The position numbers and the translations under genes were made by a program. From contig JAJDAT010000016.1 of assembly GCA_029261715.1 (NCBI GenBank), positions 301,885-365,884 of the forward strand: a stretch of 64,000 nucleotides of DNA, in the 5' to 3' direction. The notes under the pieces are model-generated. The model was not told the DNA's origin. It worked only from the letters and a program-made list of their open reading frames with translations, and ran no database searches. This document shows positions 8,343 through 12,670 of this stretch, in pieces. Position 1 is the first letter of the stretch, and the number at the start of each line of letters is the position of its first letter. Source of the stretch: Nitrospinia bacterium. Lineage in GTDB: Bacteria; Nitrospinota; Nitrospinia; Nitrospinales; JAJDAT01.

Positions 8343-9005
8343 CTACTTGAGTTCTTTATAAACCTTAAGAATGGAAATTAAAATTAGGATTGGGGACACT
8401 AATGAATAAAGAAGATAGAGCGGCTTTACAAAAGAAAACAAGGTGGCCAGCGAAACGGTAGTAACAACCATGCTGGTGAATCCAAAGTAAAACTTCTTTG
8501 AAAGGGCGTATTGAGGGTTTTTATTTAACGCTTCTGAAGACTGCTTAAGAGTCCAAGCTCTAGCGGACGTCAAAAACCCAACCAAAATAATTCCTACGGC
8601 CCCAGTTAATCCCAAAACAAAAAAATCTTCATCCATTTTGGAATAACCGATTACAACTCCAACGTGTACGACAGCGTAACAAACAGAGTCTAAAACACAA
8701 TCCATCCATGCTCCGAACTCACTGCTCATTTTTTTTGCTCGAGACAAATCGCCGTCCACTAAATCCAGCACAAAGGAAGCCTGAAGAAAAAGTACTCCAA
8801 TTAAAAAAGAGTTTGAAGTTCCAAGAGAGTATGAAAAACCCGATATAACGGCTAATAAAAAAGATACAAGAGTTACTTGGTTAGGCGTAGCGCGAGTTTC
8901 CGCAAGTACGGATACAATAGGCCATGAAAAAAGATTCCTATAGGAATAAATAATAATATCGTCTTTTCCTTTAGCGCACGCTTCTTTGACTTGTTTGTAC
9001 TTCAC
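8343..9005 (-). CDS. CDP-alcohol phosphatidyltransferase family protein (small, about 6 TM helices)
   Basis: The family signature D-x2-DG-x2-(A/S)R-x8-G-x3-D-x3-D is present as DLVDGDLSRAKKMSSEFGAWMDCVLD. The rest of the protein is hydrophobic. Confidence 0.8.
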   Translation of the reverse strand: MKYKQVKEACAKGKDDIIIYSYRNLFSWPIVSVLAETRATPNQVTLVSFLLAVISGFSYSLGTSNSFLIGVLFLQASFVLDLVDGDLSRAKKMSSEFGAWMDCVLDSVCYAVVHVGVVIGYSKMDEDFFVLGLTGAVGIILVGFLTSARAWTLKQSSEALNKNPQYALSKKFYFGFTSMVVTTVSLATLFSFVKPLYLLYSLVSPILILISILKVYKELK

Positions 9006-9057
9006 CGTTCTAAATCTCTTTCAATCAGGGGTTAAATTAATTTTTTCGTATTTTACT

Positions 9058-10197
9058 TCAGTAGATATTGGTCAAAATTTGACTGATATCTTTATAACTC
9101 AATTCAACCGGATTGTTTTTCATTCTATCCGGATTGACACTCTCCTGGACGATGGTTTCAAGATCGCTTTCCTTCAAATCCAAATCTCTCAATCTGATTG
9201 GGAGCCCAATAGACTGCATTAGTTTTGGCATATCTTTAACAAAAGATTCTAAAGAATCGGAATCAAACGCTTCCACAATTTGCTGAATTTTTTGCGGGAT
9301 CGCTTGGTTATTGAATTGAATAACCTCTTTTAAAGTAATGCTAACAGCTAGTCCATGAGGAATATCAAAATGAATTGTCATGGGGTAGGAAATTGAGTGG
9401 CATGCCGCTGTTTTAGTATTATTAAAAGCAAGGCCTGCAAATAAACTGGCCAGCGACATATTGGTGCGAGCTTCAAGATTATCCGGTTCGTTGTATGCTG
9501 TAGTTATGTTTTTTCTAATCAATCGTATGGCGTGTAAAGCAAAAGCGTCTGAGATGGGTTGCGAACTCTTTGACCAACAAGACTCAATAGCATGAGTCAT
9601 GGCGTCTAGGCCGGTAACTGCGGTAGTTTGAGGCGGCATATGAACTGTTAACTGTGGGTCAATGATCGCATAATCGGGGAACATCCAGGGATGGCTTAAA
9701 GAAAATTTCTTTTTCTGCTCCATATCCCATAGGGTTGCCCAACAAGTCACTTCACTAGCAGTTCCAGAAGTCGTGGGAATTGCAATAAACGGAAGGGGCT
9801 TATTCTCCAAAGATTTTTTTCCCGAAAGGTAATCCTCTAACGGTTCATGGTTCGTTGCCATTGCGGCTAGAATCTTCCCAGCATCCAAGACACTCCCACC
9901 TCCTAAGCTGATTACCAACTCAGCCTCCGAAGCTTTCAAGAACTGGATCGCCTGTTGAAGATCGTCGACAGTCGGGTTGGGCTTTATCTGGTCAAAAATG
10001 TACAAACTCTTGTCGTAAAGCATCCGTTTACAAACATCGACATACCCGAAACGACGCATCGATGAAAGACCGGTAACCAACAATATTTTTTTAGGAATGT
10101 TTAATTCGAGGACGTATTTTTTAAGAGATTCAAACGCATGAACCCCAAAGACAATTTTGGTAGGGCTTAGGTACTTCCAAGTTTCATCAAGCCTCAT
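9058..10197 (-). CDS. Iron-containing (group III) alcohol dehydrogenase; candidate phosphonoacetaldehyde-reductase-type enzyme
   Basis: GGGSVLDAGK nucleotide-binding motif, DAMTHAIE, and CHSISYPMTIHFDIPHGLA metal-binding His cluster. It overlaps the upstream ORF by 4 nt (10194-10197). Confidence 0.85.
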   Translation of the reverse strand: MRLDETWKYLSPTKIVFGVHAFESLKKYVLELNIPKKILLVTGLSSMRRFGYVDVCKRMLYDKSLYIFDQIKPNPTVDDLQQAIQFLKASEAELVISLGGGSVLDAGKILAAMATNHEPLEDYLSGKKSLENKPLPFIAIPTTSGTASEVTCWATLWDMEQKKKFSLSHPWMFPDYAIIDPQLTVHMPPQTTAVTGLDAMTHAIESCWSKSSQPISDAFALHAIRLIRKNITTAYNEPDNLEARTNMSLASLFAGLAFNNTKTAACHSISYPMTIHFDIPHGLAVSITLKEVIQFNNQAIPQKIQQIVEAFDSDSLESFVKDMPKLMQSIGLPIRLRDLDLKESDLETIVQESVNPDRMKNNPVELSYKDISQILTNIY

Positions 10198-11130: not shown

Positions 11131-11826
11131 TCAATAATACTCTTCTTGGTCATTAATAATCCGGGATGCATTGTCGGCAGATATAAGATTCAATTCTTGA
11201 CGCGCGTCTCCAGAAGCCAAAGACTGGCCAAATGTGATGGCTAAAATTCTTCCTAAATTAGCTGGATCGGGCGACCAGAAACCGTGAGGCACAAAACCTG
11301 GTATTAACCAGGAATCACCCTCTTGAAACTCTTCATAATGCGTTTCGCCTTCTCCAATCCAAACAAAACCTACAGGTCCTCCATGTAACACTTGAGTGTA
11401 TTGATGAAAAAAATGACCCCGGTTTAAAACAACATCTTCTTTCTCAGTCAAATGGAGTAATAGTTCTACTGGCTTAAAGTTCGGTAAGGTCGAAGACATG
11501 GCTCGACACCAATAGGTATATTGTAGTCTTTCAGCTCGAAACTGATCCATTTTAACGGCTTCTGAGTTCCTTAGAATGATCACGCCACGTTCTCTGTCAT
11601 CATCCATTGGCAGCAAATCACGAACGCTAACATGAAATTCTTTAGCCAGTTTTTCTAGCTCTTCCCATGTAGGTTTCTGATAACCCTTTTCAAGCTCGGA
11701 CAATCTATCCCGCGCAATACCAGTATTTTGAGACACCATTGCGTGTGTATATTTAATCTCATTCCGCCAAGCATGAATCAGGGACCCATAACTTAAATAA
11801 GGTGGTGTCGCAGTTTTTGTCTCCAT
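11131..11826 (-). CDS. XRE-type HTH domain fused to a C-terminal cupin (HppE-like architecture); either an enzyme or a regulator
   Basis: The N-terminal helix-turn-helix is MVSQNTGIARDRLSELEKGYQKPTWEELEKLAKEFHVSVRDLL. The C-terminal cupin is NRGHFFHQ...GDSWLIPGFVPHGFW. Putative metal ligands are H138, Q142 and H181. Confidence 0.75.
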   Translation of the reverse strand: METKTATPPYLSYGSLIHAWRNEIKYTHAMVSQNTGIARDRLSELEKGYQKPTWEELEKLAKEFHVSVRDLLPMDDDRERGVIILRNSEAVKMDQFRAERLQYTYWCRAMSSTLPNFKPVELLLHLTEKEDVVLNRGHFFHQYTQVLHGGPVGFVWIGEGETHYEEFQEGDSWLIPGFVPHGFWSPDPANLGRILAITFGQSLASGDARQELNLISADNASRIINDQEEYY

Positions 11827-11896
11827 AGAAGCCTTCTCAACTTAATTAAGATTATGCAAAAAATATTCTATTGGCCTAAAGTAAAACCTTTTACAC

Positions 11897-12670
11897 TCAT
11901 AATATCATATCTTTAAAAGATTTTTTGGCGTTATTAAAATCCTCTTGAGTGTCTAATTCTTTCCACCCATTCTGAATTTTTACACAGTGAACGGGAATTG
12001 AGTTGTCTACCATCTCCTGAAATAAATCCGTTAAATAAGCTTTTTTCAAACTAGGAGCTTGTTGAAAAGGACGATCTGCATACGTTATCTTACTTTGCTC
12101 ATAAGACTTTTTAAATAAGTCGGAGCCACGTGCCGTTAGCTTTAACATCCCAATAAATTCACCTGGCGCATCTTCTTTCTTTAAAGATCTGACATTCTTT
12201 CCAATTTCTTGCACAAACCCTTTTTCATCGTAAAAAGCCGACTCGGCTTCGGAAATCGGGTGAAGCTTGCGGCCAACATAATTAGCCTTCCAATTTTCAT
12301 CCACAACAACCGAGACATCCTCCTTAGAGGCTAAAAGCTTCTCAACAACAGATGTATTAAAAATGATATCGCAATACAGAATAACAACATCGCCGTGAAT
12401 CTCTTCTTTCGCATAAAAAAGAGACTCTAGAATATTGTTGTTCTCATAATCTGGGTTCATAAAAAATTGAACCCCTGGAAGTTTCAACTTATCCGCCTGG
12501 TAACCTCGGATGACAAAAATATCCTGAACTCCCGCAGCCTTCAAACAATCAATTTGAATATTGATTAGAGGCTTACCGTTTAAGGGAAGTAAACACTTCG
12601 GTTTGTCATCGGTTAACTCCCCCATTCTATTCCCCATACCTGCCGCTATTATAATTGCTTTTGAAGCCAA
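11897..12670 (-). CDS. Nucleotidyltransferase, LicC/PntC-like cytidylyltransferase family
   Basis: AIIIAAGMGNRMG...KCLLPLNGKPLI is the N-terminal NTP-transferase signature. 257 aa. TTG start preceded by an AAGGTGG Shine-Dalgarno sequence. Confidence 0.8.
   Translation of the reverse strand: MASKAIIIAAGMGNRMGELTDDKPKCLLPLNGKPLINIQIDCLKAAGVQDIFVIRGYQADKLKLPGVQFFMNPDYENNNILESLFYAKEEIHGDVVILYCDIIFNTSVVEKLLASKEDVSVVVDENWKANYVGRKLHPISEAESAFYDEKGFVQEIGKNVRSLKKEDAPGEFIGMLKLTARGSDLFKKSYEQSKITYADRPFQQAPSLKKAYLTDLFQEMVDNSIPVHCVKIQNGWKELDTQEDFNNAKKSFKDMIL

What the first reader, a model, noticed from the sequence alone, without database searches (positions are those of the whole stretch)
8343..12670. 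Five-gene operon in which every recognisable family has a phosphonate-pathway member: candidate phosphono/unusual head-group lipid route with no PEP mutase nearby
Seen in the sequence:
- Five co-directional minus-strand genes with short gaps and one 4-nt overlap.
- A LicC/PntC-type cytidylyltransferase (AAGMGNRMG...KCLLPL).
- An HppE-sized HTH+cupin protein.
- A 283-aa orphan ORF.
- A group III Fe-alcohol dehydrogenase (GGGSVLDAGK plus a His cluster).
- A minimal CDP-alcohol phosphatidyltransferase (DGDLSRAKKMSSEFGAWMDCVLD).

Established knowledge:
- Fe-ADHs of the PhpC/FomC type reduce phosphonoacetaldehyde to 2-hydroxyethylphosphonate.
- HppE/HEPD/MPnS cupins then transform hydroxyalkylphosphonates.
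- PntC-type LicC enzymes make CMP-activated phosphonates.
- CDP-alcohol transferases move an activated head group onto a lipid or alcohol acceptor.

Inference: the five genes could activate a small (phosphono)alcohol and install it as a membrane-lipid or solute head group.

The unusual points are the combination itself, the single-module cupin, and the absence of pepM/ppd in the window. An IPCT/DIPPS-like compatible-solute route, or a plain phospho-alcohol head group, are alternative readings.
Basis: partly seen in the sequence, partly recalled or inferred. Interest (0 to 1): 0.72.

Follow-up and report, generated by a model that had tools for sequence, protein, structure and literature searches.

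The report
Phosphonate-tailoring gene cluster with unknown-fold partner
This five-gene block looks like a pathway that takes a small carbon–phosphorus compound, converts it, activates it with CTP and attaches it to a membrane molecule. The same genome carries the usual enzyme that makes carbon–phosphorus bonds (PEP mutase), just not next to this block. One gene encodes a conserved protein of unknown structure, and the five genes together make an unusual, experimentally testable phosphonate route.

Summary
Five minus-strand genes sit at window 8343-12670, with short gaps and a 4-nt ATGA overlap:
- a LicC/PntC-type cytidylyltransferase (CT);
- a 231-aa protein;
- a 283-aa protein of unknown fold;
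- an iron alcohol dehydrogenase (Fe-ADH) whose best model is the phosphonate-associated Phn_Fe-ADH (PhpC-type) family;
- a membrane CDP-alcohol phosphotransferase (CDP-OH-PT) with an intact motif.

Three findings sharpen the reading. First, the 231-aa 'HTH+cupin' is the N-terminal half of the methylphosphonate synthase (MPnS) / hydroxyethylphosphonate dioxygenase (HEPD) iron-enzyme family. Its best solved-structure hits are MPnS (E 1e-39) and HEPD, and it keeps an invariant His/His-Gln/His metal site. Its 165 relatives are misnamed 'XRE regulators'. Second, the genome does encode a canonical PEP mutase, fused to a PntC-type CT, on another contig, plus a two-subunit Ppd-like decarboxylase and an AEP transaminase. 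Third, the 283-aa protein belongs to a rare family with no Pfam hit and no match among solved structures. Its close relatives always sit with the CT, the iron enzyme and the Fe-ADH. Distant relatives in anammox bacteria and archaea sit with Ppd/AEP-transaminase/CT/CDP-OH-PT clusters, and there no PEP mutase was found.

Best reading (inferred, not shown): PnAA → HEP → HMP or methylphosphonate → CMP-phosphonate → a membrane-bound phosphonate head group.

The parts
11897..12670 (-). LicC/PntC-family cytidylyltransferase (CT), 257 aa, TTG start; likely makes a CMP-phosphonate
   Evidence: Pfam NTP_transf_3. PDB: LicC 1jyk over residues 4-105; Tde-PntC/aminotransferase fusion 6pd1 over 2-250. 29% identical to the CT domain of the genome's PepM fusion. 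2245 homologs.
11131..11826 (-). Single-module MPnS/HEPD-family non-heme iron enzyme (HppE-like size, with an N-terminal HTH-like subdomain). Conserved His138, His141, Gln142, Asp171, His181.
   Evidence: Best solved-structure hits MPnS 6b9s (E 1.3e-39) and HEPD 6b9r (E 4.3e-24), then HppE. Across 121 homologs: H138 in 120/121; H141, Q142, D171, H181 invariant. Homologs are misannotated as XRE regulators.
10194..11045 (-). Conserved protein of unknown function and fold (283 aa, soluble, all-helical); the cluster's partner
   Evidence: No Pfam or NCBIfam hit. AF2 pTM 0.88. No fold match by Foldseek, VIA (Z<8) or Atlas. Co-occurs with the CT, iron enzyme and Fe-ADH in all close relatives.
9058..10197 (-). 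Iron alcohol dehydrogenase of the PhpC/FomC type; likely reduces PnAA to HEP
   Evidence: NCBIfam best model TIGR03405 Phn_Fe-ADH (287.6 bits; cut-off 423.7). It is the only TIGR03405 match in the genome.
8343..9005 (-). Membrane CDP-alcohol phosphotransferase (about 6 TM segments) that transfers the activated head group
   Evidence: Pfam CDP-OH_P_transf. Nearest NCBIfam models: archaetidylinositol-phosphate synthase, DIPPS domain, PIP synthase, all below cut-off. Hydrophobic segments at 43-217 and motif at 84-106.

Best explanation
The five genes form a phosphonate-tailoring operon. It uses phosphonoacetaldehyde (PnAA), made by the genome's PEP mutase on contig C5 and its Ppd-like decarboxylase on C49.

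Proposed steps:
1. The PhpC-type Fe-ADH reduces PnAA to 2-hydroxyethylphosphonate (HEP).
2. The single-module MPnS/HEPD-family iron enzyme cleaves HEP's C1–C2 bond with O2, giving hydroxymethylphosphonate (HMP) or methylphosphonate (MPn) plus formate. Alternatively it acts on the HEP moiety after CMP activation.
3. The PntC-type cytidylyltransferase uses CTP to make a CMP-phosphonate (the Fom1 CT domain does this for HEP).
4. The membrane CDP-alcohol phosphotransferase moves the phosphonyl group onto a hydroxyl acceptor at the membrane, most likely a lipid such as diacylglycerol or a lipid-linked carrier. The product would be a C1/C2-phosphonate head group on the cell surface.

The conserved 283-aa protein is a required partner whose job is not known.

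What is shown and what is inferred:
- Shown by sequence: the families, the conserved metal site and the genome-wide phosphonate genes.
- Inferred: the order of steps, the exact product and the acceptor.
For: - The Fe-ADH's best NCBIfam model is the phosphonate-associated Phn_Fe-ADH, and it is the only one in the genome.
- The 231-aa protein is homologous to MPnS and HEPD, with invariant H141/Q142/H181, near-invariant H138 and an invariant D171. At the Q142 position HppE carries its catalytic Glu142 (PMC9088020).
- The genome has a canonical PEP mutase (TIGR02320 355 bits, EDK…NS motif) fused to a PntC-type CT, as in Fom1 and PntC fusions (PMC6697681; PMC9088020). It also has a Ppd-like two-subunit decarboxylase and an AEP aminotransferase.
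- The CT's homology spans LicC and Tde-PntC. Fom1's CT domain makes CMP-HEP (PMC9088020).
- Related clusters in metagenome contigs keep CT + iron enzyme + orphan + Fe-ADH. Some are followed by a TagF-like CDP-glycerol phosphotransferase or by B12 radical SAM genes.
- Distant orphan homologs sit with Ppd + AEP transaminase + CT + CDP-OH-PT in anammox-bacterial genomes.
Against: - No activity was tested.
- The Fe-ADH is below the curated cut-off of its family.
- The CT's nearest solved structure is LicC, a phosphocholine enzyme, so substrate class is not settled by sequence.
- The iron enzyme's alignment cannot tell MPnS from HEPD chemistry.
- PEP mutase, Ppd and AEP transaminase are scattered over three other contigs rather than clustered.
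- The CDP-OH-PT is missing from the close metagenomic relatives of the cluster.
- Distant homologs of the orphan also occur in redox/oxidative-stress contexts.
Confidence: 0.6

Rival explanations
1. A phosphate-ester head-group route, not a phosphonate one. The Fe-ADH reduces a phospho-aldehyde, the CT makes a CDP-alcohol, and the CDP-OH-PT builds an ordinary phospholipid or phospho-alcohol conjugate.
For: The CT's best solved-structure hit is LicC, a phosphocholine CT. Close homologs of the CT carry automatic names such as 'choline kinase', 'phosphocholine cytidylyltransferase' and 'L-glutamine-phosphate cytidylyltransferase'. The Fe-ADH is below the Phn_Fe-ADH cut-off.
Against: A phosphate route would need a kinase, and there is none in the cluster. 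An MPnS/HEPD-family iron enzyme with an invariant metal site has no role in phosphate-ester head groups. The genome carries PEP mutase, Ppd-like and AEP transaminase genes.
Confidence: 0.15
2. A di-myo-inositol-phosphate (IPCT/DIPPS-like) compatible-solute route.
For: The CT and CDP-OH-PT each hit one half of the bifunctional IPCT/DIPPS model NF041135.
Against: The scores are 49.5 and 57.3 bits against a cut-off of 580. There is no inositol-1-phosphate synthase in the cluster, and the Fe-ADH and MPnS/HEPD-like enzyme are unexplained by DIP synthesis. The CDP-OH-PT has about 6 TM segments, which points to a membrane acceptor.
Confidence: 0.03
3. The 231-aa protein is an XRE-type transcriptional regulator with a cupin sensor domain that controls an unrelated operon.
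For: Pfam finds only HTH_3 in it. JGI and NCBI name its homologs 'transcriptional regulator with XRE-family HTH domain'. Some CT homologs carry an N-terminal XRE HTH.
Against: The cupin part is homologous to MPnS and HEPD over about 200 residues (E 1e-39). A His/His-Gln/His site is invariant across 121 homologs. HppE and MPnS/HEPD themselves have HTH-like N-terminal subdomains (PDB matches cover it).
Confidence: 0.05
4. The same phosphonate chemistry, but the acceptor is a glycan or polymer (exopolysaccharide/teichoic-like) rather than a lipid; the CDP-OH-PT may act on a lipid-linked sugar.
For: In close metagenomic relatives the CDP-OH-PT is replaced by TagF-like Glyphos_transf (PF04464), next to carbamoyltransferase, sulfatase and ATP-sulfurylase genes. 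Lockwood et al. describe HMP and MPn on cell-surface polymers (PMC9381506).
Against: In this genome the transferase is a polytopic CDP-OH-PT, whose characterised members work on lipids.
Confidence: 0.2

Closest known systems
Streptomyces fosfomycin pathway (Fom1 PepM–CT fusion, FomC Fe-ADH, Fom3, FomD, Fom4/HppE)
   Same: A PEP mutase fused to a cytidylyltransferase (here on C5), an Fe-ADH that makes HEP, a CT that can make CMP-HEP, and an HppE-superfamily iron enzyme with an N-terminal HTH-like subdomain.
   Different: No Fom3 B12 radical SAM methylase and no FomD in or next to the cluster. The iron enzyme is closer to MPnS/HEPD than to HppE and has Gln where HppE has its Glu142. The cluster adds a membrane CDP-OH-PT and an unknown-fold protein. 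The genes are split across contigs.
MPnS (Nitrosopumilus; methylphosphonate synthase) and HEPD (phosphinothricin / HMP pathways)
   Same: Homologous iron cupin with a conserved His-His-Gln…His site aligned to MPnS H148/H151/Q152/H190. Substrate would be HEP, made by a PhpC-like Fe-ADH.
   Different: Ours is 231 aa, covering only the first (active) module of the roughly 450-aa two-module MPnS/HEPD. It sits in an operon with CT and CDP-OH-PT. Its product (MPn vs HMP) cannot be told from sequence.
PntC phosphonyl-tailoring cytidylyltransferases (Rice et al. 2019, PMC6697681) and LicC
   Same: Same NTP_transf_3 CT family. PntCs make CMP-AEP; LicC makes CDP-choline.
   Different: Substrate not determined here. 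Its close homologs are not fused to PepM, whereas the genome's own PntC-type CT is.
CDP-alcohol phosphotransferases (PIP/AIP synthases, DIPPS, choline/ethanolamine phosphotransferases)
   Same: Full CDP-OH_P_transf motif and a polytopic membrane protein.
   Different: Its nearest curated models (AIPS, PIPS, DIPPS) score far below their cut-offs. A CMP-phosphonate donor would be unusual for the family (inference).
Phosphonate gene-cluster families inventoried by Lockwood 2022 and the 2022 Microbial Genomics inventory (PMC9381506, PMC8942020)
   Same: HEPD/PhpC-containing clusters linked to cell-surface modification.
   Different: This cluster includes an unknown-fold conserved protein and a single-module MPnS/HEPD-like enzyme that annotators call a regulator.

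Membership tests
Phosphonate biosynthesis/tailoring pathway | A PEP mutase (EDK…NS motif) in the genome as the C–P source | tested here: met
   TIGR02320 355 bits at C5:73108-73968, fused to an NTP_transf_3 CT; EDKVFPKRNS motif present.
Phosphonate biosynthesis/tailoring pathway | Enzyme that converts PnPy to PnAA (Ppd) | tested here: inconclusive
   A two-subunit TPP decarboxylase on C49 scores similarly against Ppd and sulfopyruvate-decarboxylase models, both below cut-off.
PhpC/FomC-type phosphonate Fe-ADH | Best match and above-cut-off score to the Phn_Fe-ADH model TIGR03405 | tested here: inconclusive
   Best NCBIfam model, but 287.6 bits against a 423.7 cut-off.
HppE/HEPD/MPnS non-heme iron phosphonate enzymes | Cupin homology to characterised members plus a conserved facial-triad-type metal site | tested here: met
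   phmmer E 1.3e-39 to MPnS and 4.3e-24 to HEPD. H138/H141/Q142/H181 aligned to MPnS H148/H151/Q152/H190 and conserved in 120-121 of 121 homologs.
HppE (fosfomycin epoxidase) specifically | Glu at the HppE Glu142 ligand/catalytic position | tested here: not met
   Gln142 in all 121 homologs. The HppE row has Glu at this position.
MPnS vs HEPD | Second-sphere residues that set MPn vs HMP product | not testable with these tools
   Both MPnS and HEPD rows align with His/Gln at the same positions. Product specificity needs an assay or a structure-based comparison of residues not recovered here.
PntC (phosphonate-specific CT) | Prefers a phosphonate over phosphocholine | not testable with these tools
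   Sequence homology spans LicC and Tde-PntC. Needs kinetics.
IPCT/DIPPS DIP pathway | Scores above the curated cut-off of bifunctional IPCT/DIPPS models; inositol-1-P synthase present | tested here: not met
   49.5 and 57.3 bits against 580; no inositol-1-P synthase in the cluster.
XRE transcriptional regulator (for the 231-aa protein) | A stand-alone HTH DNA-binding protein without an enzymatic domain | tested here: not met
   A roughly 200-residue MPnS/HEPD-homologous cupin follows the HTH.

The most novel reading that the evidence does not exclude
The 283-aa unknown-fold protein is a new enzyme family in phosphonate tailoring, and in organisms without PEP mutase it may even be an alternative way into C–P metabolism. 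In five anammox-bacterial genomes, including a 6-Mb genome nearly all on one contig, it sits immediately before Ppd + AEP transaminase + CT + CDP-OH-PT, exactly where pepM normally sits, and no canonical PEP mutase was found in those or nine other orphan-bearing MAGs.
Probability: 0.1. Interest if true: 0.9.

Novelty: new variant of a known kind. Interest (0 to 1): 0.6.

Why it matters
If it is right, this is an unrecognised route that puts small phosphonates on bacterial membranes. It would join three things: a HEP-making Fe-ADH, a single-module relative of methylphosphonate synthase / HEPD, and CMP activation plus CDP-alcohol-type transfer. Such phosphonate head groups on membranes or surfaces resist phosphatases and are a sink of marine and soil phosphorus. 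The iron enzyme's family is widely misannotated as 'XRE transcriptional regulators', so MPnS/HEPD-like capacity is probably undercounted in genome surveys. The conserved unknown-fold partner is a new protein family that could be characterised.

Tried and rejected
- **IPCT/DIPPS compatible-solute reading:** rejected (scores far below cut-offs; no inositol-phosphate synthase).
- **Pure XRE-regulator reading of the 231-aa protein:** rejected (MPnS/HEPD homology and an invariant metal site).
- **'No phosphonate source in the genome':** rejected. A canonical PEP mutase exists on C5, plus Ppd-like and AEP-transaminase genes.
- **Fold of the 283-aa protein:** searched whole (Foldseek PDB, VIA-wide, Atlas) and as its C-terminal half (VIA-wide). 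No match above Z 7.3 or TM 0.33, so its fold and function stay unknown, not proven new. Pfam at E≤1 across 22 homologs and ESM-Atlas feature search found nothing.
- **Single-protein genome-contig scan for the orphan:** found nothing; the profile scan reached distant homologs.
- **The PF13714 hits in orphan-bearing MAGs:** all are isocitrate-lyase/PrpB-type (EDQ…KKCGH or KRCGH), not PepM.
- **Solved-structure search of the B12 radical SAM next to a related cluster (L018):** no hit, so it could not be tied to Fom3.
- **Promoter/terminator scan:** gave nothing beyond chance.
- **Atlas search for the orphan:** no usable hit.
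Full report
**Confirming the observation.** The five genes are as described: CT 11897-12670 (-), 231-aa protein 11131-11826 (-), 283-aa protein 10194-11045 (-), Fe-ADH 9058-10197 (-) and CDP-OH-PT 8343-9005 (-). Gaps are 70, 85 and 52 nt, with a 4-nt ATGA overlap between the 283-aa protein and the Fe-ADH. The quoted motifs are present. Pfam and NCBIfam assign:
- NTP_transf_3 to the CT;
- Fe-ADH to the ADH, whose best NCBIfam model is TIGR03405 Phn_Fe-ADH (287.6 bits, cut-off 423.7, above lactaldehyde reductase, ErcA and the others);
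- CDP-OH_P_transf to the last gene, with nearest models archaetidylinositol-phosphate synthase, the DIPPS half of IPCT/DIPPS and PIP synthase, all far below cut-off;
- only HTH_3 to the 231-aa protein;
- nothing to the 283-aa protein.

The CDP-OH-PT has about six hydrophobic segments and its motif at residues 84-106.

**The window sits in a genome that has its own phosphonate supply.** The window is contig C16 of a 5.33-Mb, 52-contig genome, 96.9% complete. That genome has a canonical PEP mutase (TIGR02320 355 bits; EDKVFPKRNS motif) fused at its C-terminus to a PntC-type cytidylyltransferase. It sits on C5 between proS and rseP, with no other phosphonate genes nearby. This is the Ppm–PntC fusion architecture reported as common by Rice et al. 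(PMC6697681), and like Fom1 of the fosfomycin pathway (PMC9088020). The genome also has:
- a two-subunit TPP decarboxylase of the Ppd/sulfopyruvate-decarboxylase type on C49;
- an AEP aminotransferase just under the PhnW-AepZ cut-off on C40.

The cluster's Fe-ADH is the genome's only Phn_Fe-ADH-like protein.

**The 'HTH+cupin' is an MPnS/HEPD-family enzyme.** Against solved structures, its best matches are methylphosphonate synthase 6b9s (E 1.3e-39) and hydroxyethylphosphonate dioxygenase 6b9r (E 4.3e-24), then HppE structures (E ~3e-8). It covers the first, active module of the two-module MPnS/HEPD. Its residues H138, H141, Q142 and H181 align to MPnS H148/H151/Q152/H190. The HppE row carries Glu at the Q142 position; HppE's catalytic Glu142 is described in PMC9088020. 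Among 121 homologs, H141, Q142, D171 and H181 are invariant and H138 is in 120. The family has 165 members of 230-240 aa, mostly from metagenomes, and several are annotated 'transcriptional regulator with XRE-family HTH domain', which is very likely a misannotation.

**The cluster is conserved, and the 283-aa protein is its constant partner.** The 283-aa protein family is rare: 29 hits in 5.8 billion clustered proteins, none in 40 genomes of the same genus and order. In long metagenome contigs it sits in the same order as in the window (TPR – CT – iron enzyme – orphan – Fe-ADH), at 54-89% identity. In those contigs the CDP-OH-PT is absent. In two of them a TagF-like CDP-glycerol glycerophosphotransferase, a carbamoyltransferase, a sulfatase and an ATP-sulfurylase follow, a surface-glycan decoration context. 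One has B12-binding radical SAM genes.

A profile built from the orphan family (A1) found 25-30% homologs in anammox bacteria (Brocadiales, Scalinduaceae), other Planctomycetota, Methylomirabilales, Methanosarcinales, Woesearchaeota and Nanoarchaeota. In the anammox loci the orphan homolog is immediately followed by Ppd α/β subunits, an AEP aminotransferase (TIGR03301, 339 bits), a CT, a CDP-OH-PT and B12/radical SAM genes. Archaeal loci keep orphan + CT + CDP-OH-PT.

None of these 19 loci has a PEP mutase in its flanks. In 14 orphan-bearing MAGs, the only PEP-mutase-superfamily hits are isocitrate-lyase/PrpB type (EDQ…KKCGH/KRCGH), not PepM. One of them is a 6-Mb Planctomycetota genome assembled almost entirely on one contig. 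Completeness is not reported for these MAGs, so absence is not proven. Other distant orphan homologs sit beside peroxiredoxin, rubrerythrin and rubredoxin reductase, so the family is not restricted to phosphonate clusters.

The 283-aa protein is soluble and all-helical (AF2 pTM 0.88). Neither it nor its C-terminal half matches any known fold (Foldseek, VIA-wide Z ≤ 7.3, Atlas TM ≤ 0.33). Across distant homologs it conserves a set of Asp/Glu/Arg/Lys/Tyr/Trp residues (D155, D182, K220, R225, E228, D240, R244, D259, E261), which suggests a binding or catalytic site.

**How it most likely works.** This is inference from families, with Fom1 and Rice et al. as precedents:
1. PnAA, from PEP mutase (C5) and the Ppd-like decarboxylase (C49), is reduced by the PhpC-type Fe-ADH to HEP.
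2. The single-module MPnS/HEPD-type iron enzyme cleaves HEP with O2 to MPn or HMP plus formate. Alternatively it acts after activation.
3. The PntC-type CT forms a CMP-phosphonate. The Fom1 CT domain cytidylylates HEP, and PntCs make CMP-AEP.
4. The polytopic CDP-OH-PT transfers the phosphonyl group onto a membrane acceptor, probably a lipid.
5. The conserved orphan is required, but its role is unknown.

Confidence is about 0.6 for this overall reading and about 0.8 that the operon is phosphonate-related at all. Rivals are:
- a phosphate-ester head-group route (0.15);
- a glycan rather than lipid acceptor (0.2);
- the iron protein being a regulator (0.05);
- a DIP compatible-solute route (0.03).

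**How it compares with known systems.** It resembles the fosfomycin pathway (PepM–CT fusion, FomC-type ADH, HppE-family iron enzyme with an HTH-like N-terminal domain). It lacks Fom3 and FomD, has Gln rather than HppE's Glu in the metal site, and adds a CDP-OH-PT and the unknown-fold protein. It resembles MPnS/HEPD pathways but with a half-length enzyme.

I rate it a new variant of a known kind (phosphonate tailoring), interest about 0.6. The most novel reading the evidence allows is that the unknown-fold protein family is a new phosphonate enzyme, possibly standing in for PEP mutase in PepM-less lineages. Its probability is about 0.1 and it would merit interest of about 0.9.

Noticed in passing
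Homologs P0011-P0120 of the window CT: Many relatives of the CT are roughly 370-aa proteins with an N-terminal XRE-type HTH (residues 1-70) fused before the CT domain (residues 120-369).
   Followed up: partly
window 6941-8173 (-): A questin-oxidase-like gene (PF14027) lies 170 bp after the CDP-OH-PT on the same strand. It is not found at any related locus, so it is probably not part of the operon.
   Followed up: partly
window 12899-13219 (-): A 106-aa ORF upstream of the CT has no Pfam hit and no homolog in related loci.
   Followed up: partly
L015, R0RGEmeg, L018 and L021: Related clusters carry a TagF-like CDP-glycerol glycerophosphotransferase, a carbamoyltransferase, a sulfatase and an ATP-sulfurylase, or B12-binding radical SAM genes. 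This hints that the CMP-phosphonate may be put on surface glycans in other lineages.
   Followed up: partly
G000 contig C5 (L002 17287-19014) / C49 (L005) / C40 (L009): The genome's PEP mutase–PntC fusion, Ppd-like decarboxylase subunits and AEP aminotransferase lie on three different contigs rather than in one cluster.
   Followed up: yes
L023 2966-3838, L025 9214-10095: Distant homologs of the 283-aa protein in anammox bacteria sit with peroxiredoxin, rubrerythrin, rubredoxin-NAD reductase and a PHP phosphoesterase, a redox-stress context.
   Followed up: partly
L005 484-1422 (C49): An SDR epimerase/dehydratase-family gene sits directly upstream of the genome's Ppd-like decarboxylase subunits.
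   Followed up: no
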